Source: Thermoplasmata archaeon
Lineage (GTDB): Archaea; Thermoplasmatota; Thermoplasmata; GCA-020350865
Assembly (NCBI GenBank): GCA_020348445.1
Contig: CP070751.1
Coordinates: 2,444,892-2,508,891, forward strand
Direction: 5' to 3'
Length of the DNA stretch: 64,000 nt
Part shown: piece after piece, positions 2-53,433 of the stretch
Numbering within the stretch: position 1 is the stretch's first letter
Layout: the number at the start of each line of letters is the position of its first letter
Made by a program: the position numbers and the translations under genes
Notes under the pieces: model-generated
Told to the model about the DNA's origin: nothing
Databases searched by the model: none
Seen by the model: the letters and a program-made list of their open reading frames with translations, nothing else

Positions 2-451
2 CTTGAACAGTTGGGAGGCGGATCCATTGATGCATCACTGAAGAGCATAGAGGGGAATTATATCTCTCTCCAGACCTATCATGCAGGTTATTCAAGGCCA
101 TGGCTGCATTGGCATGAATCCAAACCAGGCATGCTCAACACCTTAACCAGTATGGACCACAAGTCCGGTTACTATGTTGATGTGGGCTCATCTGGACATC
201 TAAAAACCATTGGCAAAGTAATTGCTGGTGAGAGCATCCCCCTCAAAACAGGCTGGAACCTGATCGGGTTCCCGAGTCTGATATCTGTGGATAGAGACAC
301 TGCTTTAACTTCGATAGCGGGACTATATGACGCTGTTTACGGATTCGACGCCACAGCTGGGAAAGAGAAACCCATATTAGGCACTGACATGATGGACCCG
401 GGAAGCAGTTACTGGATCCATGTTACAGAAGATTGCGTTCTGGGGTTCTAA
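2..451 (+). CDS. 3' end of a secreted protein carrying the two-repeat C-terminal domain (157-aa class); 5'-truncated by the window edge
   Basis: Frame is open back to base 2 (LEQLGGGS...). Contains YHAGYSRPWLHW, GWNLIGFP and SYWIHVTEDCVLGF, which align with the C-termini of the genes ending at 12855 and 15083. Confidence 0.85.
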   Translation, partial: LEQLGGGSIDASLKSIEGNYISLQTYHAGYSRPWLHWHESKPGMLNTLTSMDHKSGYYVDVGSSGHLKTIGKVIAGESIPLKTGWNLIGFPSLISVDRDTALTSIAGLYDAVYGFDATAGKEKPILGTDMMDPGSSYWIHVTEDCVLGF

Positions 452-632
452 GTCACTTTAGAGAATCCGATATAAGAAGGCCGGTTTCTATAATAACCAT
501 ACGTTAGTGGGAACCATCTTAACCTGATTACATTACCTTCAGTAAAACAATATACCCCGCGATACTATTGGGATAAATTTATAATATGACTTATGAATAT
601 CTTCCGACATAATCCTTTGGGATGAGTCAAAG

Positions 633-2339: not shown

Positions 2340-2340
2340 A

Positions 2341-3564: not shown

Positions 3565-3565
3565 A

Positions 3566-4933: not shown

Positions 4934-4943
4934 GGTATAAAAG

Positions 4944-5696: not shown

Positions 5697-5700
5697 TTTG

Positions 5701-9375: not shown

Positions 9376-12300
9376 ATGCTTGGAGGAACTAAAGTGTCTA
9401 AAAGAAGATTTTTTTCTTTCTCAGCAAGTACAATTCTTTTGATGAGTGCTATGCTGATTGGAATTTCATTTGAAATGCCAAACACCAGTGCGGGAACTGC
9501 AAACCACGATGTGGGAGAACTTCAAATTATTTTTCTCTCAGATTTTGGAAGGATCCTACGGCCGCTTCAATGGCCAAATCCCGGTACCTCCCATACCGTA
9601 AGTAACCAAGGAACTGGGTTTTTAGGATTGGTGGTGGATCAGGCCAATTATGATCATACTCCTGGGTCAGTGGATATTGCTGATTGTTACAAATTCGGTT
9701 CCAATAACTACTGGAACCAAGATGACTTCACACCAATCTCGTTAATAAACATGACAATTGATGATGGAACAACCCAAAAAAGTATTGCTTCATTTCAGAA
9801 TACAGGAACCACCCAGGATCCAAACGACATCCTGATCAATCAAACATGTTGGACAGTAAAGGACAAGGATTGGGCAATATTACAATGGGATGTGATCAAC
9901 ATTAAAAGCCCAGCTGCTGATATCACCGATTTTTGCCTAGGTCTGGAGATTGATATTTCGCAATCTGATTGGGGAGTGGATCCATCATATGGTCTAGGTG
10001 GGGATAGCGGTGACGACATCGACGGTTTTGATGTGACTGAAAATGTCTACTGGGCTTCGGATGATGGTGGAACAACCTTGGGATTTGGCTCGGTATTTGC
10101 TTGGGATCCCATCACACATTACTTTTCAAAGGACTATCACCCCGGAGATTATAATGAATACAAAACATATTGGGAAAATGAGACTTGGTTGTACAACAGA
10201 ATTCGTGCTCCAAATAGTGTTGAGGGAGCTTCACCAGGAAACAGAACATCCACTGTAGGATGGAATGGGAATACGATACCAGCTGGGACATCAAGAACCT
10301 TCACATTGGTGATTGCATTAAACAGCACCAAAAGTAGTATGATAACAGCAATAAAGGATGCTCGATACTACTACCACAACAACATAACAGGTTTTCTTAT
10401 CACAGAGTTCTCAGATTCTGCAGGATCGCATCAAATCGAGGTTTACAATAACGGTCGCGAAGCCACTCCTGCTTCAAATTTAGAATTCTCGGTAGATGGG
10501 GGTAGTACATTCTTAACTGGAGTCTGGGACAAGGACCCGATCCCAACCTATGAACACGCGGTCATCACTGTCACTGGCGGTGGAACGATCCATGCAGAGG
10601 GCGATACCATCAGCCTTTACGAAAATTCTGAGTTGGTTGATTTGGTGGCTTTTGGGCAGGAAGGTGTGGCACCTGATCCTTTGCCCGGTGAATCAACTGA
10701 AAGGCATTATAATTCATCTTCATCAAGCTATACAGATGACTGGCTACACCAGGCCCCAACTGGAGATACATTTGGCGCTTACAACAATGTTGGAATTGTG
10801 ATCAGGTCGCCTGAGGTTGTGCTCAACAGGGTGATGTTCAATCCATCTGTACCATCTGAGGGATATGTGGAGTTGATGTTCCTAGGTTTGGGGAGCCTTA
10901 ATATTTCAGACTATGAGATCATCTGCAATGACAGGTTCACAATTCCCACAGGAATCGTCCTCAGTAACACAAATAGGTTTTATGTATTCACGTACTCTGA
11001 CATGCCTACATTTTTCACAAATATGAATTCTGCAGGGGATAACGCCTATCTCTATGACAGAAATGACAATCTCCTTGATATGGTAGGATGGAACTCCTCG
11101 CATACACAAGGTTATTTCATGTCCCGAAGCCCTGATGGTACCGGAACCTATCAGGGTTTCAATGATAAAACCTCGGAGGCTGCGGGTTGGGTTTTTGACC
11201 AGCAACCTGTTGTTCTGCTGACTGAGTTCTATATGGATAGCAGTTCAGCTCAGATTGAAATTTACAATCCAAGGGGTGGCGAAAAATTGCTTGATGCCAG
11301 ATGGAGCCTGGAAAGCAGTGTAAACGGCCCCGGGGCACTTCCAGGAACCTGGGCGTTGGGTACAATACCTGCCAATGGAGGATACGATTACTTCACCATG
11401 AGTCCGGGTCCCACACCTGGAGATGAAGGTGACACCATCACTTTATATTACGATCCTGGCTCAGGTCAAATTATAATGGATCAAGTTGCCTTTGGAACAC
11501 ATGGGAAGGCACCAGACCCCCTTGCTGCAGAATCAACGTCCCGATACTGGAACAGCACCTCATTGAGTTGCCATGACGAGTGGACAAGGGAAGACACCCC
11601 GACTTTTGGTGCTCAAAACGATGTCCCGCCAATTGATTACAACTCGAAATTAATATTGAACGAAATACTGTTTAATCCTATTAATCCTGATGACTTTTTT
11701 GTTGAACTCTACCTCATATCTGGCACTCTCGACATATCGGTATATAGAATTGTGTGTGATTCTGAATTCGTTATCCCTAGTGGAACAATATTGAGTTCAT
11801 CCAATCCTTTTTTCTATCTGATTTATTCTATGGACTCTCCCTTCTTCGATAACATGGATTCGTCCGGAGATAATGTTTATCTTTACGATCCCAATGGTCG
11901 TCTTCTTGATATGGCAGGTTGGAGCTCACAGCACGAGCAAGGTAAATCAATGCGCAGGATTCCAGATGGAAATGGAACAAGGGATGGATTTGATGATCCA
12001 AGTTCAATTGCCGCAGGCTGGGTCTTTGATTGTATACCAACATCCCTTACGCTGCCGCCAGGACCGCCAAGGGATCTTCAGGCAAATCTTGTGACAGATG
12101 CAAAGGACGTATTTATTTCTTGGAACGCATCTTTAGATGACGGTCAGGGAGAAAACGATGTTGAAGGATATACAGTTTATAAGTCTAACACGGGAGTTAA
12201 CGGAACCTACGAATTTGCGGCCTGGATTTCTGCAACAGGGTCTGCATCCTATAATTGGACTGACAAGGATGCAGGAGATGGGGATTGGAACGATTATTTC

Positions 12301-12855
12301 TATATCGTCAGAGCCAACGACACATCTGATTCTGAGGAGCAAAACACAGATAAGGTCGGCAAATTTGTCAATTATTTAGTGAAGAACTGGAATCTGATAT
12401 CTGTGCCGTTGATTCAAGTGAACACATCGATGGAGTATGTGCTGCAAACAATAGAAGGGAATTACATCACAATCCAAGGGTACCATGCAGGCAAATCAAG
12501 ACCCTGGCTTCACTGGCACAAGAACAAACCAAAATATTTCAATGATGACATAGAAATAAATCATAAAGAGGGATACTACATCAGAATGACCAATCCAGAC
12601 TATCTAATCGTGGCAGGGAGGGTACCATCTGAAACTCAGATACCCTTAAAAACAGGATGGAATTTAATCGGTTATCCGTGTCTTATAAACCAAACTCGGG
12701 ATGATGCATTATCTTCGATTGATGGAAAATACAACATGGTGGAATACTATGATCCTATAAAGGGTAAGGAAGTGAGGCTCGATCCTGGGGATTATATGAA
12801 ACCCGGACTTGGATATTGGATTCATGCAACCGAGGACTGCGTTCTTATCATATAA
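9376..12855 (+). CDS. Secreted lamin-tail-domain (LTD) repeat protein with FN3 and the two-repeat C-terminal domain
   Basis: LITEF/LNEI...(I/V)E(V/L)YN...D.V.(F/W)G...S..R LTD-like motifs arranged as an internally duplicated pair; FN3-like ISWNAS..YTVYKS..YFYIVRAN; C-terminal domain from 12382. Confidence 0.75.
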   Translation: MLGGTKVSKRRFFSFSASTILLMSAMLIGISFEMPNTSAGTANHDVGELQIIFLSDFGRILRPLQWPNPGTSHTVSNQGTGFLGLVVDQANYDHTPGSVDIADCYKFGSNNYWNQDDFTPISLINMTIDDGTTQKSIASFQNTGTTQDPNDILINQTCWTVKDKDWAILQWDVINIKSPAADITDFCLGLEIDISQSDWGVDPSYGLGGDSGDDIDGFDVTENVYWASDDGGTTLGFGSVFAWDPITHYFSKDYHPGDYNEYKTYWENETWLYNRIRAPNSVEGASPGNRTSTVGWNGNTIPAGTSRTFTLVIALNSTKSSMITAIKDARYYYHNNITGFLITEFSDSAGSHQIEVYNNGREATPASNLEFSVDGGSTFLTGVWDKDPIPTYEHAVITVTGGGTIHAEGDTISLYENSELVDLVAFGQEGVAPDPLPGESTERHYNSSSSSYTDDWLHQAPTGDTFGAYNNVGIVIRSPEVVLNRVMFNPSVPSEGYVELMFLGLGSLNISDYEIICNDRFTIPTGIVLSNTNRFYVFTYSDMPTFFTNMNSAGDNAYLYDRNDNLLDMVGWNSSHTQGYFMSRSPDGTGTYQGFNDKTSEAAGWVFDQQPVVLLTEFYMDSSSAQIEIYNPRGGEKLLDARWSLESSVNGPGALPGTWALGTIPANGGYDYFTMSPGPTPGDEGDTITLYYDPGSGQIIMDQVAFGTHGKAPDPLAAESTSRYWNSTSLSCHDEWTREDTPTFGAQNDVPPIDYNSKLILNEILFNPINPDDFFVELYLISGTLDISVYRIVCDSEFVIPSGTILSSSNPFFYLIYSMDSPFFDNMDSSGDNVYLYDPNGRLLDMAGWSSQHEQGKSMRRIPDGNGTRDGFDDPSSIAAGWVFDCIPTSLTLPPGPPRDLQANLVTDAKDVFISWNASLDDGQGENDVEGYTVYKSNTGVNGTYEFAAWISATGSASYNWTDKDAGDGDWNDYFYIVRANDTSDSEEQNTDKVGKFVNYLVKNWNLISVPLIQVNTSMEYVLQTIEGNYITIQGYHAGKSRPWLHWHKNKPKYFNDDIEINHKEGYYIRMTNPDYLIVAGRVPSETQIPLKTGWNLIGYPCLINQTRDDALSSIDGKYNMVEYYDPIKGKEVRLDPGDYMKPGLGYWIHATEDCVLII

Positions 12856-12909: not shown

Positions 12910-12965
12910 CCACCCAGTTCATACTAATTGTATCAAAACAAGGAAATATGGAGTGGGAGTTTGTT

Positions 12966-15083
12966 ATGAAAGTCCGATGTCTTCAGTTACTTGTCCATTT
13001 AGTTGTCTGGCTATTGATTTTGAATGGCTTGATCTTTTTAGATGCACCCCAAAGCAAGATTTATGATTATCCTGAGGATAACATGGAAAAAGAACCTTCT
13101 TCTATCCATAACTCCGGTTTGGGAAGATCTACAAGAGCAGGCAATGACTGGCCTATGTACCGAGGGGACCTTTTTCATTCTGGTTTTGGCACATCCTCTA
13201 TTCCATCAAATGACACCCCATTATGGTCAAATACCACAGGTAGCGGAGACGGATACGGTTCACCTGCAGTGGCCGACGGCAGGGTTTTTGCCGGTTCTGC
13301 AGATGGATATCTTTACTGTTTTGATTTGTATACTGGGGAGAGATTATGGAGAACGTTTTTATCTTCAGGTGATTTTGGTGTATGCGGCTCTCCTGCTGTC
13401 GCAAACGATCATGTAGTTGTTTTCTGTTCAGGTGATGATACTGTTTACAGATTAAGAGTATCGGACGGTAGCGAAGATTGGAGTTACTCTCCGGGTAGCG
13501 GTGCCTATGGAGGCTCTTCACCAGCAATCAGTAACGGTAGAATTTACGTTGGTTCAGGTAATAGATATCTCTATTGTTTGGATGAAATTAGTGGTAATAT
13601 GATTTGGTCATACAGAACCGATGTGGGACCTTGGAGAAATTACGGAATACAATCCTCTCCAGCAGTGGCAAATGGAAGGGTGTTTGTGGGTGCCTGTGAT
13701 ACGTATCTCTACTGCTTTAATGAATCCCAGCCCTCTGCCCCAAATGCAGAATATTTTTGGAGGACCGATCTTTATGATGCCGTATTTGCATCGCCAGCAG
13801 TAGCAAACGGGAGGGTCTTTTGTGGCTCTGGATACTATGCTTACGGTGAAGGCGATAACTCACATACGATGTTCTGTCTGGATGAACTCACAGGCGAAGT
13901 TATATGGAGTTATGTAACAGGAAGTGATATCCTGTCCTCACCTGCCATTGCCTATGGAAATTGTTATTTCACGTCCACGGATGGCGAGTTGTATTGTGTG
14001 GATGCAGAAGATTCAGGACCTACACCTTCATTTGTTTGGAGCGAGACTGTAGGAGACTCGTGGTCCTCTCCGGCAGTTGCCGATGGTAAAGTGGTGGTTG
14101 GTTCCCGTGGCACCAATTCCATATATTGTTTCGATGCTCTTTCTGGTGCTTTAATATGGAGCCGTAATCTTGGCAATGACATATACAGTTCTCCTGCAAT
14201 TTCCGATGGCAAGGTTGTAGTTGGTGTTAGAGGCTCCCCTGAATCAGTTTACTGCTTTGGAAACTTAACAAGTCCTCCTTCACCCCCTGCACCACCCACC
14301 AATTTACAGGCCCAGCTTGTGGGAAATGGAAACGATGTAATGGTCTTTTGGGATGCTTCAATAGATGACGGAAGCGGTGATGATAATGTTTTGGGTTATA
14401 CAGTATACAAATCAAGTGCAGGGGTAAACGGCCCATATGATTTCGAGGCATGGGTTTTGGCAACAGATTCTCCAACATATGATTGGACTGATGTTGGTGC
14501 AGGGGATGGTGATCTAAACGATTACTTCTACATAGTGAGGGCTAATAACACAGATAACAACGAGGAGAATAACGTAAGAAAAGTGGGTAAAGTGGTAAAC
14601 CAACAAGCAAAAGGATGGAATCTCATATCTGTTCCCTTAATTCAAGCCAGCACCTCAAGAAATTATTCACTTCAAACCATAGAAGGTAATTCTTCGGCTG
14701 TACAATCGTATCATGCAGGAAAATCAAAACCATGGCTTCACTGGAATGATAAAAAACCCGCTCATTTAAATGATGTCAACGATATTACTAATGAAAATGG
14801 ATATTATATCTACATGGTGAATACCGATTATCTTGTGACCGCAGGAAAAGTGCCAACCACAACCTCGATATCCCTTTATCATGGATGGAACATGGTGGGT
14901 TACCCTTCTTTGGAAATCAGGACAAGAAATGATGCACTTTCCTCAATTTCGGCCTCGTACAATAGGGTGATTTTCTTGGATACCCAAAGTGGAAGGGAAG
15001 TATTTCTTGGCCCAAGTGATTTAATGAGTCCTGGGTATGGATATTGGATCCATGTAACTGAGAACTGCGAACTTGTCTTGTAA
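12966..15083 (+). CDS. Secreted PQQ-like beta-propeller with FN3 and the two-repeat C-terminal domain
   Basis: DWPMYRGD start of the propeller; SSPA(V/I)A.GRV blades; FN3 plus C-terminal domain (from 14610) homologous to the upstream gene. ATG 12966 follows GGAGTGGGAG (the ORF track starts at 12948). Confidence 0.85.
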   Translation: MKVRCLQLLVHLVVWLLILNGLIFLDAPQSKIYDYPEDNMEKEPSSIHNSGLGRSTRAGNDWPMYRGDLFHSGFGTSSIPSNDTPLWSNTTGSGDGYGSPAVADGRVFAGSADGYLYCFDLYTGERLWRTFLSSGDFGVCGSPAVANDHVVVFCSGDDTVYRLRVSDGSEDWSYSPGSGAYGGSSPAISNGRIYVGSGNRYLYCLDEISGNMIWSYRTDVGPWRNYGIQSSPAVANGRVFVGACDTYLYCFNESQPSAPNAEYFWRTDLYDAVFASPAVANGRVFCGSGYYAYGEGDNSHTMFCLDELTGEVIWSYVTGSDILSSPAIAYGNCYFTSTDGELYCVDAEDSGPTPSFVWSETVGDSWSSPAVADGKVVVGSRGTNSIYCFDALSGALIWSRNLGNDIYSSPAISDGKVVVGVRGSPESVYCFGNLTSPPSPPAPPTNLQAQLVGNGNDVMVFWDASIDDGSGDDNVLGYTVYKSSAGVNGPYDFEAWVLATDSPTYDWTDVGAGDGDLNDYFYIVRANNTDNNEENNVRKVGKVVNQQAKGWNLISVPLIQASTSRNYSLQTIEGNSSAVQSYHAGKSKPWLHWNDKKPAHLNDVNDITNENGYYIYMVNTDYLVTAGKVPTTTSISLYHGWNMVGYPSLEIRTRNDALSSISASYNRVIFLDTQSGREVFLGPSDLMSPGYGYWIHVTENCELVL

Positions 15084-15180: not shown

Positions 15181-18100
15181 GTGAGTGAGATGAAAGTTCA
15201 TGTTTCTAGGACATCTGCTGTAGTTGTCATTATGATGTTAATTATTACAAGTTCTTGGACAATGGTTCTTCAACCCTCAGAAAATATTATTAATGAATTA
15301 TCTGAAGAGGAATCCCATTTGGATCCTGATCCAAGTGTTAACAGACCAACAAGAGCAGGGACACCCTGGCCGATGCACCGTAATAACCCTATTCACACAG
15401 CCTACACACCAGACTCTGGACCTATAACAGATGAGGTGCTGTGGGTTAATTATCCGCTTGGTAAGACTTTGGGCTCCCCTGCGGTGGTAGACGATAAAGT
15501 ATTTATTGGAAGCGGAAACGGAATGAACGCATTTTATATAGAAAACGGCTCACTAGCATGGCGTACTCCAACCTATAATGTGGTTCCTGGGGGCTATGGG
15601 CTCACTTCTGCACCTGCGTATTCCAATGGTTTTATTTACTTTGGTGGAGATGGTTTTTACTGTCTTTATGAAAACAATGGTACAGTCAAATGGTTTGTTG
15701 ATACTCCCCATCAAAACTGGGGAGATGGCACTCCCACTGTTGCCAATGGCAAGGTCTTTATTCCAGGAAGTGATAGAAAATTGTACTGTCTCGATGAGGA
15801 TGACGGAACTATAATTTGGACCTTTCAAACTGGTTCCGGTGGAAGCGCTAATTATGGATTGTACGCTGCTCCTGCCGTGGTAAACGGTTTTGTTTACCTG
15901 GCGGCCTGCGATTGGATCCTATATCAGATCAACGAGACCCAACCCACGATTACCGCTTCTGCATACAACACCTTCACAATGAACTATGCCTCCTATTCCA
16001 CACCCGTTGTAGTAAATAATCGAGTATTTGTAGGATGTGGATATACTGGGACAAGTACTAATAATCGCTTCTACTGCCTTGATGCAAACGATCTTTCTTT
16101 TATCTGGGAGTTTTATCCGGGCTCCTCAACCAGTTTCTTTTCCTCAGCAGGTTATTATAACAACAGGGTGTACATCGGTTCTCTGGATGGCAATCTCTAT
16201 TGCCTCGATGCAACCAGCCCCTCAGCCAATGTTCTCTGGCAATACTACATAGGTCCCACTTGGTGCTCCCCTGCCATAACAAATGACAGGCTGTATATTG
16301 GTTCAAGATCTAATGTCTTCTACTGCTTCAATCTTTCTCAAACCTCTGGATCTGAGGAGTATTACTGGATATTCAATGCCTTGGATCAAGTAAATTCCTC
16401 ACCTGCTGTGATGGATGGCAGAGTCTATGTGGGTTTTGGCTGGGAAGATAGTTCCAATGGAGGAGTTTACTGCTTCGGACCTCCACCAGTACCTCCCTCT
16501 GTGGACAGCATTCAAATCGAGGATCAGCCCGGCGGAATAGGCAACCCAATTCTCGATCAAACCATTGACGTGGGGGTACAAATTACGGGGTACGCAGCAG
16601 CATACAATGGAACTGATTACCTGTATGACATTGAGGTGGAATGGATGGTCGCCAATGGAAGCGGAGCAAATGCATCAACCTCACCCACGAATTCGGTGGA
16701 TAGTTCTGATTTCTACTCTGGTTTTTTCGGGGGAACAGCAACATGGACTGCAGATGATGGACTTGGCCATATTTACCAGGTGGAGTTCACGATAAGAGAT
16801 CCCGCTGTTGAGTACATCAGTATTGTGGATACTGAGAACATTGGTTCATCCGAGATTATGGATCAAATAGTGGATGTTGGGTTCACAAAAAAAGGCTATG
16901 CCGCATCATTTAATATAACAACCGGATATATGGGAGATGTAATAGTTAATTGGAGTGTTCAAAATACCACTTCCTCGGCCTTCACAAGTCCATCCCAGGC
17001 CACGAACTCAACATTCAATGCAAGCCTTTTAGGCGGGATAGCCACATGGATTGCCGATGACGGGAAAGGGCATACAGACGAGGTCGAGTTCACGATAAGA
17101 GACCCTACTGTGGACGACATCTTGATTGTTGACACCGAAGGAATTGGCTCCTCTGAGATCACAGGAAAAACCGTGGATGTTGGATATACTATTGTAGGTT
17201 ATGCTGCAGGCTTTAACGATACAGCAGGATATATCGGAGATGTTCCAGTTAACTGGTATGTGGTAAACACGAGCGGAGCCGAAGGTTTTACCTCCCCGAC
17301 TTCGGGGCCAAATTCAATTCTTAACGTTAGCTTTAAAAATGGCACTGTAGAATGGATTGCAGATTATGGGGGCGGTCATACCGATTCTGTTGTATTTTCG
17401 GTGCGAAAGCCAACTGTTGATTATATCATAATCAGAACAGGCTCGAAAGGAACAGGAAGCTGGGTGGGGGATTCCACATATATCTTCGGGACCACTGATA
17501 CATTCTATGCAGGGGGTTACAATAATACAGCAGGCTGGATAGAAGATGTGGATGCCGAATGGGAAAGTGACAATCAGCCTGTGGGAAATGTTAGTATGGG
17601 TCCCTCCAACTCCACAACCTTCTCTGCAATAAACAACGGAACCTGCAATATCACTGCAACTTACGATAAATTTTCGAATACGACAGGTGTTATATCTGTC
17701 ATCAACTACACAATCGATTACATTATAATCAGGGATTCACCAGGTGGAGAAGGTTCAGTTGTGGAAGATATGAATTTCGCAGTTGGAGGAACTGCGACTT
17801 TCTATGCCGCTGCCTACAATGAATCATCTGGCTATCTTGGAGATGTAGGAGTGGAATGGGAATCCAGTAATGAAACCATCGCAATCGTAACGAGCCCTGG
17901 GATCTCAACACTTTTTACTGCTCAATTTATTGGCGGGGAATGCAATGTCACTGCAACATACGATTCATTAATTTCCAATGTAACTGGAACGCTAACCGTT
18001 TTAGATGCAGAGATAAATTATATTCTGATTACTAATGCACCAAATGGGGATGAAATTTCCACTGTTTATTTGAATGTGAACGAGACCATAACAGTTTATG

Positions 18101-19899
18101 CATCAAGTTACAATGAATCCACATCACTATATCTGGGTTTGGTGGAGGTTAACTGGGATCAATTTCCTGCTATCGGGTCATTCAACCTACCCACGGGGAG
18201 TTCCACAACATTCAGGGCAGGGATGTCGGGAGGGACTACCTCGATCAATGCAACATATACATCCCTGGGGCTTTGGGATAATTTCACGCTGGTTATTAAC
18301 GATCCCACAGTTGATTATATCCAAATAAGGGATGAAAGTGGTGGTTTAGGTGATGTTATTTCGCAGGCCAGCTTCACACTTGGAGATATTGTTTCTGATA
18401 CATACTATTGCGCAGGTTACAACTACACGGCAGATTACATAGACGACATGTCTGCAAATTGGGTGGTAATCGGTAATATAGGCACTGTTATCCCAAGCTC
18501 AGGTACATCAACACAATTTACCGCCACAACTGCGGGATCAGGGGAAATCACCGCAAGTTACAATGGAAAATCCACATCAGCAGATATTACAATATATCCA
18601 GAACCTGATCTAACTCCTCCTGCAGCGCCAACTGGACTTCGGGTTCGTCAGGTGGCCACTGGAGGTGCATTGAGTTTAACATGGAATCCCAATACAGATG
18701 CTGATTTGGCAGGGTACAACATCTATCGGTCAACTACAAATGGAACAGGATATGAAAAGGTAAATACCGAGCTGGTCACAGAAACTCAATTTCCCAATAC
18801 AGGTCTCATAAATGGAGTAACTTATTACTTTTATATCACAGCTGTAGACGATGCTCCCACACCAAACGAATCTCCACCTTCAGATACAGTTGACAATGTA
18901 TGCGATGTTGATACAGACGGAGATGGGGTATACGATAATAATGATGATGATGATGACAATGATGGCCTTTCAGATTCCGAAGAAGCTGACATTCAAACAG
19001 ATCCCAAAAATCCAGATACTGATGGGGATGGATACAACGATGCCGAGGATGAAGCTCCACTTGATCCGCACAAACATCAAAAAGAAGATCCCCCGCCCGA
19101 TGCACCTACGGGCTTGGTTGTGACTCCACTTTCTTCAGGGGATGCCCTCAACATTTCTTGGGATGCAAATACCGAGGAAGACCTAGCAGGATATAATCTC
19201 TTTCGCTCTCTGCTTCCTGATAGGGAGTTTGAGAGGTTAAATAATGATGTTATAACGTCTGAGTATTACGTTGATAGCTCATTAACTTCCGGAGTCAAGT
19301 ACTATTATTATGTGGTGGCAGTGGACACCACTAGTCAAATCTCTGATCCGTCCGAAAAAATAAGTGGTGTTCCCGATATCGATACCGATTCTGATGGAAA
19401 ACTTAACTATGAAGATGATGATGATGACAATGATGGTCTTACAGATTCTGAAGAAGAGGATATGGGAACAGATCCTTTGCGGGAGGACTCGGATGGAGAT
19501 GGGTATATCGATTCTGAGGATTTTTATCCGTTAAATGCAGGGAAGTGGGAGAAATCAAAAGAAGAAGATTTTAATGTTTTATTATTGTTGATTCCAATTA
19601 TTCTGATCGTCATATTACTGTTATTTTTTATTTTAACAAAAAAACGCAAACCTGAGGAAGTTCCTCCACCAATATCTGCCCCAGAGAGAGTATTGCCTCC
19701 CCCGCCAGCAGGATACGTACAAAAGAAAGAGACTCCAGTAATCGAGCAAAAGGAAATGCCATTACCCCAAGAAGAGGAAGAATCTCCACTTCCTGATGAC
19801 GAAGAATTTCCTACTCCTGAGGACAAGAAAGAACTTCTATCTCCTGAAGATGAAGAGGAGCCTTTTGACGAGGATGCACTGCCACCTCCTGACGATTGA
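15181..19899 (+). CDS. Large surface protein: PQQ-like propeller, Ig-like repeats, two FN3, TSP3-like Ca-binding repeats, TM helix, Pro/acidic tail
   Basis: WPMHRNN propeller; repeated P.V(D/E)YI.I......Y(A/C)A(A/G)YN...Y..D..V.W units; D.D.DG/DDDDDND motifs; TM helix then PPP/EED tail. Start may be ATG 15190. Confidence 0.85.
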   Translation: MSEMKVHVSRTSAVVVIMMLIITSSWTMVLQPSENIINELSEEESHLDPDPSVNRPTRAGTPWPMHRNNPIHTAYTPDSGPITDEVLWVNYPLGKTLGSPAVVDDKVFIGSGNGMNAFYIENGSLAWRTPTYNVVPGGYGLTSAPAYSNGFIYFGGDGFYCLYENNGTVKWFVDTPHQNWGDGTPTVANGKVFIPGSDRKLYCLDEDDGTIIWTFQTGSGGSANYGLYAAPAVVNGFVYLAACDWILYQINETQPTITASAYNTFTMNYASYSTPVVVNNRVFVGCGYTGTSTNNRFYCLDANDLSFIWEFYPGSSTSFFSSAGYYNNRVYIGSLDGNLYCLDATSPSANVLWQYYIGPTWCSPAITNDRLYIGSRSNVFYCFNLSQTSGSEEYYWIFNALDQVNSSPAVMDGRVYVGFGWEDSSNGGVYCFGPPPVPPSVDSIQIEDQPGGIGNPILDQTIDVGVQITGYAAAYNGTDYLYDIEVEWMVANGSGANASTSPTNSVDSSDFYSGFFGGTATWTADDGLGHIYQVEFTIRDPAVEYISIVDTENIGSSEIMDQIVDVGFTKKGYAASFNITTGYMGDVIVNWSVQNTTSSAFTSPSQATNSTFNASLLGGIATWIADDGKGHTDEVEFTIRDPTVDDILIVDTEGIGSSEITGKTVDVGYTIVGYAAGFNDTAGYIGDVPVNWYVVNTSGAEGFTSPTSGPNSILNVSFKNGTVEWIADYGGGHTDSVVFSVRKPTVDYIIIRTGSKGTGSWVGDSTYIFGTTDTFYAGGYNNTAGWIEDVDAEWESDNQPVGNVSMGPSNSTTFSAINNGTCNITATYDKFSNTTGVISVINYTIDYIIIRDSPGGEGSVVEDMNFAVGGTATFYAAAYNESSGYLGDVGVEWESSNETIAIVTSPGISTLFTAQFIGGECNVTATYDSLISNVTGTLTVLDAEINYILITNAPNGDEISTVYLNVNETITVYASSYNESTSLYLGLVEVNWDQFPAIGSFNLPTGSSTTFRAGMSGGTTSINATYTSLGLWDNFTLVINDPTVDYIQIRDESGGLGDVISQASFTLGDIVSDTYYCAGYNYTADYIDDMSANWVVIGNIGTVIPSSGTSTQFTATTAGSGEITASYNGKSTSADITIYPEPDLTPPAAPTGLRVRQVATGGALSLTWNPNTDADLAGYNIYRSTTNGTGYEKVNTELVTETQFPNTGLINGVTYYFYITAVDDAPTPNESPPSDTVDNVCDVDTDGDGVYDNNDDDDDNDGLSDSEEADIQTDPKNPDTDGDGYNDAEDEAPLDPHKHQKEDPPPDAPTGLVVTPLSSGDALNISWDANTEEDLAGYNLFRSLLPDREFERLNNDVITSEYYVDSSLTSGVKYYYYVVAVDTTSQISDPSEKISGVPDIDTDSDGKLNYEDDDDDNDGLTDSEEEDMGTDPLREDSDGDGYIDSEDFYPLNAGKWEKSKEEDFNVLLLLIPIILIVILLLFFILTKKRKPEEVPPPISAPERVLPPPPAGYVQKKETPVIEQKEMPLPQEEEESPLPDDEEFPTPEDKKELLSPEDEEEPFDEDALPPPDD

Positions 19900-19997
19900 G
19901 TATTTAGCTTTCCCGTTCCTGTAACAGGGTGTATAAATATGATACCAACATCGAATAATTTATATTATACCCTCTTATTTTTAAATTGTCAAGGTGA

Positions 19998-34653: not shown

Positions 34654-34658
34654 AAATG

Positions 34659-45472: not shown

Positions 45473-45490
45473 ATTAACCCATCAGATACT

Positions 45491-46458: not shown

Positions 46459-46881
46459 TTAATAACACTTTTTCTCACATGTACAGATCTTATTCCCGTG
46501 CTTACTGAGTGTATTTGCCCCCCAATATTTGAAGGCATAGACAAGAGTATCGTACGATTCCTCATTGGAGAGAGAGATGTTTAACTTGGGAAGAAGTTTG
46601 TTCTTATAAAGCATCCTGGCAACTGATGTCACAGCATCCTTTGTTTCGTTTGACTTAGAATCACTTATACTCAGTAATTTGAATGGACAGTTTGATTCGT
46701 CAGAATGTTTTATCATGTCAATGATATGCGGTTCTACTTCATTTTGAGCCGTCTCTATTTTCGATACTGTATCTGCTTTCAACGCGACCATATTTCTCCC
46801 GTAGGTTAATAGGCATATGGCCTTATAAGACTTATGGAATAAAATATCAATAATGATTCTATTTTTTTTACATCCCGTCAC
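46459..46881 (-). CDS. Hypothetical protein
   Basis: 140-aa ORF adjacent to the sirtuin. Start is uncertain (possibly MVALKAD); no motif recognised. Confidence 0.45.
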   Translation of the reverse strand: MTGCKKNRIIIDILFHKSYKAICLLTYGRNMVALKADTVSKIETAQNEVEPHIIDMIKHSDESNCPFKLLSISDSKSNETKDAVTSVARMLYKNKLLPKLNISLSNEESYDTLVYAFKYWGANTLSKHGNKICTCEKKCY

Positions 46882-47629: not shown

Positions 47630-47682
47630 TTTGACATATCTCGACCTTTGGTTTTAATTTTTTGGAGAAATACCCGAATATC

Positions 47683-47740
47683 TCAAAAGCAAATGTATTT
47701 TACGACTATAAGAATGTAATTTTTCTACACAGAGCATATA
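47683..47740 (+). repeat. 58-bp direct repeat (copy 1), promoter-proximal
   Basis: 51/58 identity to 53532-53589 by manual alignment; ends at a TATA-like element. Confidence 0.8.
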
Positions 47741-47797
47741 TATCTAAGGTTATATAGACGTCGATTAGGGATAAGGTATGTTGAGGGGGCATTTGCA

Positions 47798-50700
47798 ATG
47801 AAAAGGAAGTTGCCATCGGTTAGTGTCTGTTTTCTCCTTGTTTTGGTGATGTTCATCTCGGTGGACATGGGGCTTGAGGTAGTGGAGAATGCAGAAGGGA
47901 CCACGATTTATGTGGGAGGCTTGGGTCCTGGTAATTATTCTACTATCCAGGCGGCAATAAATGATGCAAACAACGGTGATACAGTATATGTATACCACGG
48001 AGATTATTCTGGATGTTTATTAATAAACAAAACAATAAATCTAATCGGAGAACATAAGAACAATACAACCATCGATGGCGGAGGAGATGGATACGTAATT
48101 TGTATTACCTCTGATTTCGTAAATATAACTGGGTTTGAAATAATGGGCAGCGGAAAAAATCACCCATGGGCTGGAGTAAAAATAGACTCCCATAACAATA
48201 CAATCTTTGCAAATAGCATTTCAGCAAACGACGGATATGGCATTTATCTTAATTATTCAAATGATAACATTATACGTGATAACATATTTTATTGGAATCA
48301 TGGATCAATTTGGCTTGATCATTCCACAAGAAACAAAATAACAGGCAATACCTTGATGGTTAGTATGGCCTCCATAACCCTTCTTTACTCCAAAGAGAAT
48401 AAAATAACATATAATTATATATCATCAAATAATCAAAGTACCGGTATCCATCTTATTTATTCAGATAATAACGATATCATGGCTAATGCACTTATAAATT
48501 GCTGGCATGGAATTTATATTGAGCGTTCCAGTAAAAATGAAGTAATGGGGAACGATGCATCAAGTGGAAAATATGGAATACGTTTAAATGTCGCCACTGA
48601 AACACAAATTACGTTAAATAGTGTCTCCTCAAACGGTCATACAGGTATTTATCTCAGCGGCTCTTCAAACAACACCATATACCATAATAATATCCTTTCA
48701 AATACAAATCTGGGATACGATAATTCCAATGACGCCAATCAATGGGATGCCGGCTATCCAGATGGGGGCAATTATTGGTCAGATTTTTCAGGATTCGATA
48801 ACTTCAGCGGTCCAGATCAGGATATACCAGGGGGCGATGATATAGGAGATTCCCCCTATTCTATTGATTCTGATTCCATTGATAATTATCCAATGATGAA
48901 TCCATGCAATATTCCGTATAACCCTCCTAATTCCCCTGAGGAAAGAAACCGTCCACCCACAGCTTATGCATCACCAGAAGCACAGACTATATATGTTGAC
49001 CAAAGTGCACAATTTTCAGGATGGGGTATGGACCTCGACGGTTATATAAAGGTCTATGAATGGGATTTTGGGGATGGATCTCCTCTAAGTTACAGTAAGA
49101 ATCCTACACATCAATATGATGAAATAGGTGATTACATAGTTACCCTAACAGTTATAGACAATGATGGGGGAATGGATTCAGATACATGCGAAGTAACTAT
49201 AATTCCAAGAAATCCTCCCATCGCTGATGCAGGTTCTGATCAATCAGTTTTTATTGGCCAGGATGTTCAGTTCGACGGAAGCGGAAGTTACGATCCTGAT
49301 GATCATTATTACTGGAATATTACGAAAGTAGCTGATACAAGTCATTATGGACCAAAATATACGTGGATTGAAATTAAAAGTGATGATACACCATTGATAA
49401 GTTATGGTAATGGTTACTATTCACAGGTATTGGATAGCAAAGATCGATTACATAAAATCTACGGGTCTGGAAGCCTTGTATATACCGGTTATCTTAATAA
49501 TCAACCTACCTCACAAATTGTAGATAGTGGTGGTGTAGGCTTCTATTCCTCAATTGCACTTGGCAGTAATGATTACCCACAAATTAGCTATTATGATGGC
49601 GGAAATGGTGATTTGAAATATGCAAGATGGACAGGGAGTAACTGGAGCATTCAACCTGTGGATACAGAGGGAGATATTGGAACCTTCACCTCAATTGTAG
49701 TTGACATTTTTGATTTTCCCCATATAAGCTATTTAGATGCAGCCAACCAGAACCTGAAATACGCAAGATGGACTGGAAGTGAATGGAGCATCAAAACCGT
49801 TCCTACAAACGGAGACGAAATCCGCCAGGTATCAATTGGAACCACGGGTAGAGAGGCGATTTTAAGCTTTGTTGAAATTAGTAATGTTCCTATGAATGAA
49901 AATATGGAATTAAAGTGCGCAACTTGGTCTGGTAACTATTGGAATATCAATGAAGTAGACGATTATGGATATGCACGTCATTTCTTTTGTTCACCTTCCA
50001 TGAGGATCGATGAAAATGGTTTTATACATCTTAGTTATGGGCACTGGAATATAAGTAACAATGAGAATCATCATTGGGATCCTGAGCTCAGGTACAATTG
50101 TGGTGATATCGAAACCGTGGATAGTCATCCAGATTTCCCCGGTGTTGCCTTTGCCAGTTCATCCATAGCTTTTGACAGCAAGATTCTCCCGCATATTGTT
50201 TATTGGGATGAACTAGATCAAAGTGTTGAGTACGCTAAAAAGACTAAATTCAACGATATTATCTCCTACGAATGGAATTTTGGTGATGGGACACCAAATG
50301 TCACAGGCAAGAATCCCATTCATGTTTATAACACTCCAGGAATGTATGACGTAACTCTTACAGTCATGGACCGAAGTGGTGGTAAAGATACCGATAATTG
50401 CACTATAACTGTAATAAACGGGACCCCTGTGAATCTAAATTATGGTTGGAATCTCATTTCCCTTCCGACAATTCAAGATGATACAAAAATCCAAACAGTT
50501 TTACAATCAATTGAAGGGGACTACGATGCTGTACAATGGTACGACGCATCAGATAGCCGTGACCCATGGAAACATCATCATATTTCCAAGCCACCCTACC
50601 TAAACGATCTGAATGCAATTGACCATAAAATGGGCCTCTATATTCGTGTCACTAACAAGAAAGGAGCGATTCTCTTTTTAGAGGGGGTTAGGCCTGCCAC

Positions 50701-50938
50701 AACCCAGGAAATTAGCCTCCATCAGGGTTGGAACCTGGTAGGCTATCCCTCTTCCATAATTCTTTCGAGGGATGAAGCCCTTAATAATCTCGTTTTTGAG
50801 GTGCAAATTAACGCTATAAAATATTATGATACAACATCCAGCAAGCTCAAAAATCTAGGTGAAGATGGATTAATGGAACCGGGTATGGGCTTCTACATTC
50901 ACGCTCAAACCAACTGCGTGTGGGAGGTGACACTTTGA
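47798..50938 (+). CDS. Secreted NosD-like beta-helix protein with two PKD domains, an inserted propeller-like region and the C-terminal domain (165-aa class)
   Basis: YSTIQAAI..A..GDTVYVY.G.Y; GI.L..S..N.I..N repeats; GGNYWSD; PKD WDFGDG motifs; C-terminal domain from 50441. Confidence 0.85.
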   Translation: MKRKLPSVSVCFLLVLVMFISVDMGLEVVENAEGTTIYVGGLGPGNYSTIQAAINDANNGDTVYVYHGDYSGCLLINKTINLIGEHKNNTTIDGGGDGYVICITSDFVNITGFEIMGSGKNHPWAGVKIDSHNNTIFANSISANDGYGIYLNYSNDNIIRDNIFYWNHGSIWLDHSTRNKITGNTLMVSMASITLLYSKENKITYNYISSNNQSTGIHLIYSDNNDIMANALINCWHGIYIERSSKNEVMGNDASSGKYGIRLNVATETQITLNSVSSNGHTGIYLSGSSNNTIYHNNILSNTNLGYDNSNDANQWDAGYPDGGNYWSDFSGFDNFSGPDQDIPGGDDIGDSPYSIDSDSIDNYPMMNPCNIPYNPPNSPEERNRPPTAYASPEAQTIYVDQSAQFSGWGMDLDGYIKVYEWDFGDGSPLSYSKNPTHQYDEIGDYIVTLTVIDNDGGMDSDTCEVTIIPRNPPIADAGSDQSVFIGQDVQFDGSGSYDPDDHYYWNITKVADTSHYGPKYTWIEIKSDDTPLISYGNGYYSQVLDSKDRLHKIYGSGSLVYTGYLNNQPTSQIVDSGGVGFYSSIALGSNDYPQISYYDGGNGDLKYARWTGSNWSIQPVDTEGDIGTFTSIVVDIFDFPHISYLDAANQNLKYARWTGSEWSIKTVPTNGDEIRQVSIGTTGREAILSFVEISNVPMNENMELKCATWSGNYWNINEVDDYGYARHFFCSPSMRIDENGFIHLSYGHWNISNNENHHWDPELRYNCGDIETVDSHPDFPGVAFASSSIAFDSKILPHIVYWDELDQSVEYAKKTKFNDIISYEWNFGDGTPNVTGKNPIHVYNTPGMYDVTLTVMDRSGGKDTDNCTITVINGTPVNLNYGWNLISLPTIQDDTKIQTVLQSIEGDYDAVQWYDASDSRDPWKHHHISKPPYLNDLNAIDHKMGLYIRVTNKKGAILFLEGVRPATTQEISLHQGWNLVGYPSSIILSRDEALNNLVFEVQINAIKYYDTTSSKLKNLGEDGLMEPGMGFYIHAQTNCVWEVTL
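50893..50929 (+). repeat. 37-bp repeat at a gene 3' end (second copy at 53388-53424)
   Basis: CTACATTCA(C/T)GCTCAAACCAACTGCGTGTGGGAGGTG, 36/37 identical. Confidence 0.85.
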
Positions 50939-53433
50939 GGAGGAAAGTTACATCTTTAGGTCTATGTTTAATACTTTTTATGGCGATATTTACTACTTTC
51001 GATTTGAATTGTAAAATTATCCAAACAGGTAAAAGTGAAACCTTCTATGTGGATGATGACGGTGGAAAGGACTATACAAGAATACAGGATGCAATAGACA
51101 ATGCCACTGCTGGAAGTATTATTTATGTCTGGAATGGAACCTACAATGAAAATGTTGTTGTGGATAAATCATTAACAATTATCGGCAATAGTTCGATGAA
51201 CACAATTATCGATGCTAATAAAACCGGTGATGCAATGACCATCCAAGCAAATTGGGTAAATATTACTGGATTTACATTTGCTAGGCCAAATAAATATAAA
51301 GCTGGAATAAAGCTTGATAATGCTGAGAATTGTATGGTAACGTATAATGCTTATTCTCCCTATTATGGTTCCTCATATGGTATCCATATCTATAATTCCA
51401 GAGAGAACACTATAATTTCCAATAACTTCTCAAAAGCAAGATGCGGGATTTTAGTAAATATATCGGACAATAATAATATTGCAGAAAACGATCTATTCGG
51501 CAACAGATATGGCATATTTCTGGGTCCATCAAGTAACAATAATTACATTGATAACAACAATATTTCAAATAGTAAAATCTTGAATGTCGACCAGTATGGG
51601 ATATATATCCATTATTCTGTCGGAAATAATATCACACAAAATATAATGGTTGAAAATGGAATTTTTATCTCTGGAAACCTTATTCAACATTGGAATACAC
51701 ATAAAATTGATACTTCAAATATTATTTCCTCAAAACCTGTATATTATTGGAAGAATCGAACTGGTGGTATTATCCCAATGGGTGCGGGGCAGATCATCCT
51801 AGCCCACTGCCAAAATGTTACAGTAAAAAATCAGGAAATTTCTAATAGTTCTGTGGGAATTGAGCTGGGTTTCTCACTAAACAATGATATTATAAATAAT
51901 AATGCATCGGATAACTATTATGGATTTTACTTATATAAATCAAATGATAATTTGTTTATGAATAATAATATCTCAAATAATAATTATGGGATTTTCTTAA
52001 AAAATTCCGGCAATAACAAGATCATCTCGTGCAGTTCTTATTCAAACAAAAAATATTCAATTTATTGCCATGTTTCAAATGATAATTTAATGGAAAGTAA
52101 TGAATTTCATTCAAGCATTTATTTATTCTCTTCAAGTTTTAATAAGATAAATGATAATGATTTAAATAAATGCAGTATTGGCTTAAGATACTCATCGAAT
52201 AACAGTATCGAAAGAAATACCTTTTCTAGTGGCGGAATTGGTCTTCAACATTCCTCAAATTACAATACAGTAACAAAAAATATCATTCTAAATTCAGGAG
52301 TCTCGTTAACGTTAACATCTTCGATGTACAACAGTATTACATATAATGAAATTTTTCATCCAACAATAGGCTTTGATTTATATTTATCCTCAAAAAATAT
52401 TATTGCAAATAACAATATATCGTTAAGTAACATAGATGGGATTTATTTATCCGATTCAGATCACAACATCATTCTTGATAATAATATATCGTTCAGTCAA
52501 GTTGATGGTATCTATAGCTATTATTCTTCAAATAATACGATCAGGGGAAATAACATATCATCAAACAATGAAATGGGAATTCATTTTTCACATTCACACA
52601 ACAGCTCGATAATTGAAAATACTATTTATAAAAATGGATACGGCCCTATATTCGATAGTTGGGGCATTCGTCTAGAGTTTTCATTAAATAATGTAATCTA
52701 TCACAATAATATAATAGATAACAAAATACAAGAATCTGATAACTCACCTTTTTCAAATTTGTGGAATGATTCATATCCCTCTGGTGGTAATTACTGGAGC
52801 AATTACAAAGGGAAGGATGAAAAAAGTGGCCCGAAGCAGGATCAACCTGGAAGCGATGGTATCGGTGATACCTCGATCGGGAGTGATAATTACCCTCTAA
52901 TGAAACCCTACCAAAAAACGAGGATACCCTTGACTAAAGGTTTTAATTTAATATCAATTCCAAAAATCCAATCAGATACCTCTATTCAAAGTGTTTTGTA
53001 TTCCCTTTCAAATCAATATTATGCCGTTCAATCGTATAACAATTCGGATGGAAATGATCCTTGGAAACATTACCACACCTCAAAACCCTCTCAAATGAAC
53101 GACTTGAAATGTCTCGACCACAATATGGGATTTTTTATATATATAAAAGATCCAGATGGAACAATTTTTATAGTGAATGGAACAATGCCTCATTTTTCAC
53201 AAAATATTTCACTTTATAAAGGTTGGAATCTTGTTGGCTATCCCTCTTTTACTAATTATAACCGAACTGATGCCCTAAACAACCTTACTTTCGGAACACA
53301 TGTGGATGCAATATGGACCTTTAATTCTGCAAATCAAAAATTTCAATCGATTGGTGAGTCAGATTACTTCAAGCAAGGTAAAGGTTACTACATTCATGCT
53401 CAAACCAACTGCGTGTGGGAGGTGCCCCTCTGA
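50935..53433 (+). CDS. Secreted NosD-like beta-helix protein with the C-terminal domain (165-aa class)
   Basis: DYTRIQDAIDNA, Asn-rich parallel beta-helix repeats, GGNYWSNY; C-terminal domain from 52936. TTG 50935 overlaps the upstream TGA behind GGAGGTG. Confidence 0.85.
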   Translation: MRRKVTSLGLCLILFMAIFTTFDLNCKIIQTGKSETFYVDDDGGKDYTRIQDAIDNATAGSIIYVWNGTYNENVVVDKSLTIIGNSSMNTIIDANKTGDAMTIQANWVNITGFTFARPNKYKAGIKLDNAENCMVTYNAYSPYYGSSYGIHIYNSRENTIISNNFSKARCGILVNISDNNNIAENDLFGNRYGIFLGPSSNNNYIDNNNISNSKILNVDQYGIYIHYSVGNNITQNIMVENGIFISGNLIQHWNTHKIDTSNIISSKPVYYWKNRTGGIIPMGAGQIILAHCQNVTVKNQEISNSSVGIELGFSLNNDIINNNASDNYYGFYLYKSNDNLFMNNNISNNNYGIFLKNSGNNKIISCSSYSNKKYSIYCHVSNDNLMESNEFHSSIYLFSSSFNKINDNDLNKCSIGLRYSSNNSIERNTFSSGGIGLQHSSNYNTVTKNIILNSGVSLTLTSSMYNSITYNEIFHPTIGFDLYLSSKNIIANNNISLSNIDGIYLSDSDHNIILDNNISFSQVDGIYSYYSSNNTIRGNNISSNNEMGIHFSHSHNSSIIENTIYKNGYGPIFDSWGIRLEFSLNNVIYHNNIIDNKIQESDNSPFSNLWNDSYPSGGNYWSNYKGKDEKSGPKQDQPGSDGIGDTSIGSDNYPLMKPYQKTRIPLTKGFNLISIPKIQSDTSIQSVLYSLSNQYYAVQSYNNSDGNDPWKHYHTSKPSQMNDLKCLDHNMGFFIYIKDPDGTIFIVNGTMPHFSQNISLYKGWNLVGYPSFTNYNRTDALNNLTFGTHVDAIWTFNSANQKFQSIGESDYFKQGKGYYIHAQTNCVWEVPL

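What the first reader, a model, noticed from the sequence alone, without database searches (positions are those of the whole stretch)
2..53433. A conserved two-repeat C-terminal domain that replaces the membrane anchor on unrelated secreted proteins: candidate archaeal surface-sorting or docking system
Seen: six secreted proteins (heads: LTD, PQQ propeller, FG-GAP, NosD twice, and one truncated at the window edge) end in the same domain, GWNL(I/V)S.P...(I/L)EG.Y..VQ.Y....PW.H....KP..(L)ND...DH..G..I...GWNL.G(Y/F)P...R..AL......GY(W/Y)IH....hydrophobic end. Counted from two residues before the first W, it is exactly 157 aa in two genes (12382-12852, 14610-15080; the 2..451 fragment is the same class) and exactly 165 aa in three (24756-25250, 50441-50935, 52936-53430). 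The classes have distinct motifs (YHAG.S.PWLHW versus Y...D..DPWKH). None of these proteins has a C-terminal TM helix, and none of the nine TM-anchored surface proteins here has the domain. Inference: the domain is an alternative attachment or export tag, analogous to dockerin, SLH or the T9SS CTD, with two specificity classes. I recognise no named family, but I cannot confirm that it is unannotated.
Basis: partly seen in the sequence, partly recalled or inferred. Interest (0 to 1): 0.85.

Follow-up and report, generated by a model that had tools for sequence, protein, structure and literature searches.

The report
Unnamed two-repeat tail on archaeal surface proteins
About ninety exported proteins of this uncultured sediment archaeon (Thermoplasmata), six of them in this window, end in the same 160-residue domain that no database describes; it most likely holds them at the cell surface in place of a membrane anchor, but what it binds is unknown.

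Summary
Six window ORFs end in one homologous domain of 157 or 165 aa. It is a tandem duplication of an ~80-aa unit (hhalign probability 99%).

- **No known relative.** It matches nothing in Pfam, NCBIfam or PDB sequences. A confident AlphaFold model (pLDDT 96.7) has no convincing structural relative (best Z 5.4).
- **How common it is.** The genome (5.16 Mb) holds 93 full copies. 86 end within 5 residues of the stop, about 90% have a signal-like N-terminus, and none has a C-terminal TM helix. 176 other surface-type ORFs have a TM anchor and no copy.
- **Heads and constraint.** The same head families carry either ending. Between paralogs the tail is far more conserved than the heads (63% against 36% identity).
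- **Range.** The family has 11,313 clusters at 50% identity, mainly uncultured Thermoplasmata. Chloroflexota genomes hold a few copies each.
- **Partner.** I found no sorting enzyme or receptor. An apparent archaeosortase co-distribution dissolved at phylum scale.

My best reading (0.45) is a non-covalent surface-retention or docking module. It could also be an external-ligand binding module, an assembly module or a cleaved sorting signal. The two classes are real subfamilies, but whether they differ in specificity is untested. This scan found the same domain before in other Thermoplasmata genomes and drew similar conclusions.

The parts
2..451 (+). Short-class tail domain. It is the end of a 725-aa ORF that begins upstream of the window; the stop codon is at 452-454.
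9376..12855 (+). Exported protein of 1159 aa with two lamin-tail domains and an fn3-like domain. The short-class tail domain is at 12382-12852.
12948..15083 (+). Exported PQQ beta-propeller protein of 711 aa with an fn3-like domain. The short-class tail domain is at 14610-15080.
22326..25253 (+). Exported FG-GAP repeat protein of 975 aa. The main-class tail domain is at 24756-25250.
47798..50938 (+). Exported NosD/beta-helix plus PKD protein of 1046 aa. The main-class tail domain at 50441-50935 is the copy that was modelled.
50920..53433 (+). Exported NosD/beta-helix protein of 837 aa. Its start overlaps the end of the previous gene. The main-class tail domain is at 52936-53430.
15181..22226 (+). 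Contrast set: two PQQ-propeller plus fn3 proteins (15181-19899 and 19998-22226). They have the same head family as 12948-15083 but end in a TM helix and an acidic tail, with no tail domain.

Best explanation
The tail is a self-folding, extracellular, two-lobed domain. It keeps Sec-exported proteins at the cell surface by binding non-covalently to one common envelope component, a protein or a glycan. It does the job that a C-terminal TM helix does in paralogs with the same heads.

Shown here:
- the domain, its internal duplication and its confident fold;
- its near-strict C-terminal position on signal-bearing proteins with very diverse heads;
- its exclusivity with TM anchors in this genome;
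- repeated swapping of the two endings within head families;
- much stronger conservation than the heads.

Inferred: that it binds something on the cell, that the signal peptide is cleaved, and that the subfamilies bind different partners.
For: - There are 93 full copies, 4.5% of the genome; 86 end within 5 aa of the stop.
- About 90% have a basic N-terminal region followed by a ~20-residue uncharged segment, like the type-I TM proteins.
- 0/93 have a C-terminal TM helix. 176 type-I-like ORFs lack the domain. 76/93 heads have TM-anchored paralogs.
- On the NosD head tree (34 with the tail, 17 with a TM) the ending changed at least 11 times, against 14.6 for shuffled labels.
- In 721 paralog pairs the tail is 63% identical and the heads 36%; the tail is the more conserved part in 97% of pairs. 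This suggests one shared, constrained function.
- Heads are both enzymatic and non-enzymatic: beta-helix, PKD, LTD, FG-GAP, propellers, CARDB, BNR, M14, GH9, GH43, phosphatase. Anchoring modules typically show this spread; substrate-specific modules do not.
- N-glycosylation sequons are twice the shuffled expectation (313 against 150), which fits an exposed extracellular domain.
- In two other Thermoplasmata the domain is followed by a Ser/Thr-rich linker, a TM helix and a basic tail, so there it sits next to the membrane.
Against: - No binding partner, receptor or envelope ligand was identified.
- No gene family is a general neighbour of the tail-bearing genes.
- The domain also occurs at 1-6 copies per genome in Chloroflexota, and once in an Aenigmatarchaeota genome. 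Their envelopes differ, so a lineage-specific envelope ligand is hard to reconcile with this.
- The domain is acidic (median net charge -7), so simple electrostatic binding to anionic lipids is unlikely.
- Many paralogs with the same heads have neither a tail nor a TM helix.
- Cleavage of the N-terminal signal is assumed. If it stays as an anchor, the tail would be the distal tip.
- No cultured organism carries the domain, so there is no experimental evidence at all.
Confidence: 0.45

Rival explanations
1. The tail binds something outside the cell: a polysaccharide, detritus, a mineral surface or another cell. It would then be a lectin-, CBM- or adhesin-like module that tethers enzymes and adhesins to a substrate rather than to the producer's own surface.
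For: - Some heads are hydrolases: GH9, GH43, BNR sialidase-like, M14 and a phosphatase.
- The domain crosses between Archaea and Bacteria that share sediment habitats but not envelopes.
- Trp, Tyr and Asn are invariant or nearly so (W43, W97, N98, Y34, Y102), as in sugar-binding sites.
- Single-repeat relatives lie inside giant adhesin-like proteins of other Thermoplasmatota.
Against: - There is no similarity to any CBM, lectin or Ig family by sequence or fold.
- One identical module on ~90 proteins, most with non-enzymatic heads, is unusual for substrate-binding modules.
- The near-strict C-terminal position and the exclusivity with TM anchors are not expected for a CBM.
- It sits next to the membrane in L036 and L115.
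Confidence: 0.25
2. The tail is an assembly or stability module. The tails bind each other or a lattice, forming a common protein coat that displays varied heads, or they simply cap and stabilise the protein's C-terminus.
For: - Conservation between paralogs is very high.
- The internal pseudo-dimer of two homologous lobes weakly resembles RCK_C/TrkA_C domains, which act as dimers (Z 5.4 over 63 residues).
- No separate partner gene was found.
Against: - Self-association was not tested; only monomer models were possible.
- Chloroflexota and Aenigmatarchaeota genomes with 1-6 copies could hardly build a lattice.
- A stability cap would not need to be exclusive with TM anchors.
Confidence: 0.15
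3. The tail is a sorting signal in the manner of the T9SS C-terminal domain. A dedicated machine would recognise it, and might remove it and attach the protein covalently.
For: - It is strictly C-terminal in 97% of the best public hits.
- Copy number per genome is high, as for T9SS or PGF-CTERM cargo.
- Among 41 close relatives an archaeosortase-like gene tracked the tail: both 26, neither 11.
Against: - At phylum scale the archaeosortase link fails: both 10 genomes, tail only 39, archaeosortase-like only 35.
- Archaeosortases act on a motif-TM-basic signal, which the tail lacks. The genome has no PGF-CTERM match.
- There is no conserved cleavage motif upstream of the domain.
- Three copies in this genome, and several elsewhere, are internal and followed by another full domain.
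- The tail does not match PF18962 or TIGR04183.
Confidence: 0.08

Closest known systems
T9SS C-terminal domain (Por_Secre_tail, PF18962 / TIGR04183) of Bacteroidota
   Same: One conserved beta-rich domain sits at the extreme C-terminus of dozens of otherwise unrelated exported proteins per genome.
   Different: - There is no sequence match.
- It is twice as long and built of two repeats.
- The hosts are archaea, which to my knowledge lack an outer membrane and a T9SS (not searched here).
- No processing enzyme was found.
- A few copies are internal.
SLH domains and Listeria GW modules (non-covalent envelope-binding repeats of Gram-positive surface proteins)
   Same: These are repeated units, usually at the C-terminal end, that hold diverse secreted proteins on the cell without a TM helix. 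GW modules are also ~80-aa repeats with a Gly-Trp motif.
   Different: - There is no match to PF00395 or PF13457.
- No SH3-like or helical SLH fold appeared among the structural matches.
- Their ligands (pyruvylated cell-wall polymer, lipoteichoic acid) are bacterial wall components, which to my knowledge Thermoplasmata lack.
Dockerin-cohesin system of cellulosomes
   Same: A duplicated C-terminal module is shared by many enzymes, and subfamilies could mean different docking specificities. The main class has an acidic Y-D/N-x-x-D-x-x-D-P-W loop that could bind a cation.
   Different: Dockerins are ~70 aa with two EF-hand-like helical repeats. There is no PF00404 match, and no cohesin-like receptor or scaffold was found.
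PGF-CTERM / archaeosortase A
   Same: It is an archaeal C-terminal tag shared by many surface proteins.
   Different: PGF-CTERM is a short motif plus a TM helix plus a basic tail, and it is cleaved and lipid-linked. The tail described here is a 160-aa soluble domain, and its distribution does not follow the archaeosortase-like gene at phylum scale.
RCK_C / TrkA_C domain (best structural match)
   Same: Each lobe has a similar small beta-alpha-beta arrangement: Z 5.4, rmsd 2.5 Å over 63 residues for lobe 2, and Z 3.2-3.5 for lobe 1.
   Different: The scores are below the level at which a shared fold can be trusted. RCK_C is cytoplasmic and binds ligands. Identity is 3-12%.

Membership tests
T9SS C-terminal domain (PF18962 / TIGR04183) | Sequence match to the family models | tested here: not met
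   No Pfam or NCBIfam hit at E<=1 for any of the six copies.
T9SS C-terminal domain (PF18962 / TIGR04183) | Position at the extreme C-terminus of cargo | tested here: met
   86/93 in this genome and 247/254 of the best public hits end within 5 aa of the protein end.
T9SS C-terminal domain (PF18962 / TIGR04183) | Host has an outer membrane and T9SS translocon/sortase (SprA, PorV, PorU) | not tested
   T9SS genes were not searched. The hosts are Thermoplasmata archaea.
PGF-CTERM / archaeosortase substrates | Tripartite signal: short motif, TM helix, basic tail | tested here: not met
   No TM-like segment in the last 130 aa of any of the 93 copies. No TIGR04126 match in the genome.
PGF-CTERM / archaeosortase substrates | Co-distribution with an archaeosortase | tested here: not met
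   It tracks the gene among 41 relatives but not across 301 genomes of the phylum: both 10, tail only 39, archaeosortase-like only 35.
SLH domain (PF00395) | Sequence match; ~55-aa helical repeats, usually three | tested here: not met
   No Pfam hit. The model is mostly beta with two ~80-aa repeats.
Listeria GW module (PF13457) | Sequence match and SH3-like fold | tested here: inconclusive
   No Pfam hit. No SH3-like chain among the listed structural matches, but weak folds can be missed.
Dockerin (PF00404) | Two 22-residue Ca-binding loop-helix repeats; cohesin partner | tested here: not met
   No Pfam hit. The model is mostly beta. No cohesin-like partner was seen among neighbours.
Carbohydrate-binding modules / Ig-like domains | Sequence or fold match to a known CBM, lectin or Ig family | tested here: inconclusive
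   - No Pfam, NCBIfam or PDB sequence hit.
- Foldseek gave no match with E<=0.001.
- The best VIA-align Z was 5.4 and 3.8, to unrelated small domains.

The most novel reading that the evidence does not exclude
The tail is the docking half of an undescribed archaeal surface-display system. A new fold would bind one or a few dedicated, still unidentified receptors on wall-less Thermoplasmata, and the subfamilies (short, main and long classes) would be distinct docking specificities. This would be a functional analogue of dockerin-cohesin or SLH that arose independently.
Probability: 0.3. Interest if true: 0.85.

Novelty: new variant of a known kind. Interest (0 to 1): 0.6.

Why it matters
These uncultured sediment archaea, to my knowledge, lack the usual cell wall, and nobody knows how they hold proteins on their surface. 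In this genome 4.5% of the DNA encodes proteins that end in this one undescribed domain. Public data hold more than 11,000 sequence clusters of it. It has no Pfam or NCBIfam entry, and I found no paper on it. Naming it and finding its partner would explain the localisation of a large part of the exported proteome of abundant sediment archaea. It could also give a handle for displaying or purifying their surface proteins, and it would add a new, confidently modelled fold.

Tried and rejected
- **Databases.** Pfam, NCBIfam and a PDB-sequence profile gave no family.
- **Fold searches.** Foldseek and VIA-align on the whole domain and on repeat 1 alone gave nothing convincing.
- **ESM Atlas.** It returned only unnamed clusters.
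- **Literature.** Searches for the motif and for Thermoplasmatota surface sorting found no description.
- **Archaeosortase as sorting enzyme.** The correlation was striking among 41 relatives but is rejected at phylum scale.
- **Neighbour enrichment around all ~100 copies.** There is no general partner. The only enriched family is a 14-member small secreted protein next to one NosD subfamily.
- **Cleavage motif.** None is conserved upstream. Only the domain's own leading Leu and the end of the beta-helix heads are conserved there.
- **Expression.** No RNA holder was listed. The DNA is held by two sediment-metagenome runs of one study.
- **Model coordinates.** They were not available, so exposure of the conserved Trp, Asn and Tyr residues could not be assessed.
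Full report
**Observation.** Translating the six stated stretches gives one homologous domain. The six copies align over 168 columns with 24 invariant positions and 37-58% identity to the first copy. The coordinates and lengths in the window are exactly as reported: 157 aa twice, 165 aa three times, and a truncated short-class copy at 2-451. Pfam assigns the heads as stated: lamin-tail domains, a PQQ propeller, FG-GAP repeats, and NosD/beta-helix twice, one with PKD domains. A hydropathy scan shows one N-terminal hydrophobic segment and no C-terminal one in the five complete proteins. It also finds exactly nine other window ORFs with an N-terminal signal plus a C-terminal TM helix (633, 2341, 3554, 8119, 15181, 19998, 26827, 40422, 56998), none with the domain. 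Several of these have the same head families: PQQ propellers and FG-GAP.

**Scale in this genome.** The window lies in a single 5.16-Mb contig.
- A profile of the six copies finds 106 matches, in 102 stop-to-stop ORFs. 93 of these cover at least 140 of the 163 profile positions, and those ORFs make up 4.5% of the genome.
- Of the 93, 86 end within 5 residues of the stop and four within 10-40 residues.
- Three are internal. One is followed by a second beta-helix head, one by 216 unassigned residues, and one by a Spherulin4 domain.
- About 90% have a strongly hydrophobic N-terminal segment, against 45% of control ORFs. Its length and flanking basic residues are like those of the type-I TM proteins (median 20 against 22 uncharged residues).
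- None of the 93 has a TM-like segment near its end. 176 type-I-like ORFs have no copy. 76 of the 93 heads have TM-anchored paralogs.
- On a tree of 82 NosD-type heads, 34 have the tail, 17 a TM helix and 31 neither. The ending changed at least 11 times, close to the 14.6 of shuffled labels. Beta-helix repeats align poorly, so this tree is rough. The small PQQ family shows the same pattern.
- In 721 paralog pairs with alignable heads, the tail is 63% identical and the head 36%. The tail is the more conserved part in 97% of pairs.

**Anatomy.**
- The two halves are homologous (hhalign probability 99%, E 2e-18). Each starts with G-W-N-L-(I/V)-(S/G)-x-P and ends with G-x-(G)-(Y/F)-(W/Y)-I-x.
- The first half carries an extra loop. 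It reads Y-(D/N)-x-x-D-x-x-D-P-W-K-H in the main class and Y-H-A-G-x-S-x-P-W-L-H-W in the short class.
- A conserved Leu four residues before the first Trp belongs to the domain. There is no conserved cleavage-like motif upstream.
- AlphaFold2, given 63 diverse sequences, returns a mostly-beta model with pLDDT 96.7 and pTM 0.89. The first repeat alone gives pLDDT 96.1.
- Foldseek finds no PDB match with E <= 0.001.
- An exhaustive VIA-align search gives at best Z 5.4 (rmsd 2.5 Å, 63 residues) to RCK_C/TrkA_C domains for the second lobe and Z 3.8 for the first. This is below the level at which the tool advises trusting a shared fold.
- Pfam, NCBIfam, PDB sequences and the ESM Atlas give no name.
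- The domain is acidic (median net charge -7). It carries N-glycosylation sequons at twice the shuffled expectation (313 against 150), concentrated at a few loop positions, as expected for an exposed extracellular archaeal domain.

**The two classes.** The short class forms a clade of 20 sequences with support 0.99. It has nine to ten members in this genome, six of them clustered at and just upstream of the window, plus members in three related genomes. It is always preceded by a conserved fn3-like domain. The main class is 163-166 aa and a third group is 172-176 aa. The subfamilies are therefore real. Whether they differ in partner is not testable here.

**Distribution.**
- The closest named record is an uncultured Thermoplasmata chromosome labelled Methanomassiliicoccales (CP070739). 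The DNA comes from sediment metagenomes.
- Among 41 relatives, 29 have the domain, with up to 48 matches per genome in the relatives. The genomes without it are mostly 90-100% complete and of 1.3-2.3 Mb.
- Across 301 genomes of the phylum, 49 have it.
- A search of 1.84 billion representative proteins finds 11,313 clusters at E <= 0.001 and 728 at E <= 1e-30.
- 247 of the 254 best public proteins carry it within 5 residues of their end. The exceptions are mostly head-tail-head fusions with a second beta-helix, and one has a distal TM helix.
- Two-repeat copies in more distant Thermoplasmatota are also terminal. Weak single-repeat matches lie inside giant proteins of 1,800-4,600 aa.
- Three Chloroflexota genomes hold 2-6 matches each, an Aenigmatarchaeota genome one, and a Methanosarcinales MAG 15. 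The heads there include an M14 peptidase, a beta-helix and CBM9, and one copy is internal in an RHS-repeat protein.
- In two Thermoplasmata relatives the domain is followed by a Ser/Thr/Asp-rich linker, a TM helix and a basic tail (L036, L115). This shows it can sit next to the membrane, and that exclusivity with TM anchors is strong but not absolute.

**Search for a machine or partner.**
- The genome has a weak archaeosortase-like gene (PF09721, 30 bits) and no PGF-CTERM match.
- Among the 41 relatives that gene's pattern nearly matched the tail's: both 26, tail only 3, gene only 1, neither 11. This included a joint absence inside one family.
- In the same 301 genomes of the phylum the link fails: both 10, tail only 39, gene only 35. 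I treat the first result as shared ancestry.
- Neighbour analysis around all copies found no general partner. The one strongly enriched family has 14 members, 12 of them adjacent (p 4e-8). It is a small secreted protein beside one NosD subfamily.

**Mechanism.**
- I favour a non-covalent surface-retention or docking module (0.45). The protein is exported by Sec, the signal is probably cleaved, and the tail binds a common envelope component, standing in for the TM anchor of its paralogs.
- The main rival (0.25) is binding to an external ligand. The cross-domain distribution and the conserved aromatic and Asn residues support this. The uniform use on about 90 mostly non-enzymatic heads and the membrane-proximal cases count against it.
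- Self-assembly or stabilisation (0.15) was not tested.
- A cleaved sorting signal (0.08) is the least likely. No machine was found, internal copies exist, and there is no TM helix or cleavage motif.

**Comparison and novelty.** In use, the tail resembles T9SS C-terminal domains, SLH and GW modules and dockerins. It is not a member of any of them by sequence, and it shows no trusted fold similarity to anything in the PDB. I found no paper describing it. Earlier follow-ups in this scan met the same family in other Thermoplasmata genomes and reached similar conclusions. This report adds:
- the genome-wide census;
- the paralog swap and conservation tests;
- the rejection of the archaeosortase link;
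- the membrane-proximal variants;
- the sequon enrichment.

It is a real, abundant and uncatalogued domain, and its function is still inferred.

Noticed in passing
L141:4405-4902 (-) = genome C1:1484404-1484901; 13 further paralogs: A 14-member family of ~150-aa secreted proteins has no Pfam hit and only weak discoidin/jelly-roll-like Atlas leads. 12 members lie 56-1,314 bp from a NosD-plus-tail gene on the same strand (11 of them within 460 bp), often alternating small-large-small.
   Followed up: partly
L036:1174-3477 (-) and L115:1-3759 (+): In two other Thermoplasmata the tail domain is followed by a Ser/Thr/Asp-rich linker, a TM helix and a short basic tail. In L115 the end (SGGSS-LFGLLLLLAVVCLAV-RKHRN) looks like a sortase-type tripartite signal.
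   Followed up: partly
window 12000-12380 and 14230-14610: The short-class tails are always preceded by a conserved fn3-like domain. The shared cassette is therefore about 260 aa, longer than the reported domain.
   Followed up: partly
genome C1:2831653-2832879 (L119:1336-2562 -): There is an archaeosortase-like gene (PF09721, 30 bits) in a genome without any PGF-CTERM match. Its substrates may be among the 176 type-I-like proteins, some of which have short basic tails after the TM helix.
   Followed up: partly
window 28302-32006 (-): A giant 1234-aa protein has about 13 hydrophobic segments and two FtsX-like permease domains. It lies between the two groups of surface-protein genes.
   Followed up: no
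window 50920-50938: The second NosD gene appears to start at a GTG 19 bp before the stop of the first. Such tandem pairs could become the head-tail-head fusions seen elsewhere (P0061, P0153, P0168).
   Followed up: no
L121-L128 (other Thermoplasmatota genomes): Single ~75-aa repeats of the same unit occur inside giant proteins of 1,800-4,600 aa (26-50 bits). The repeat is therefore older and more widely used than the two-repeat terminal form.
   Followed up: partly
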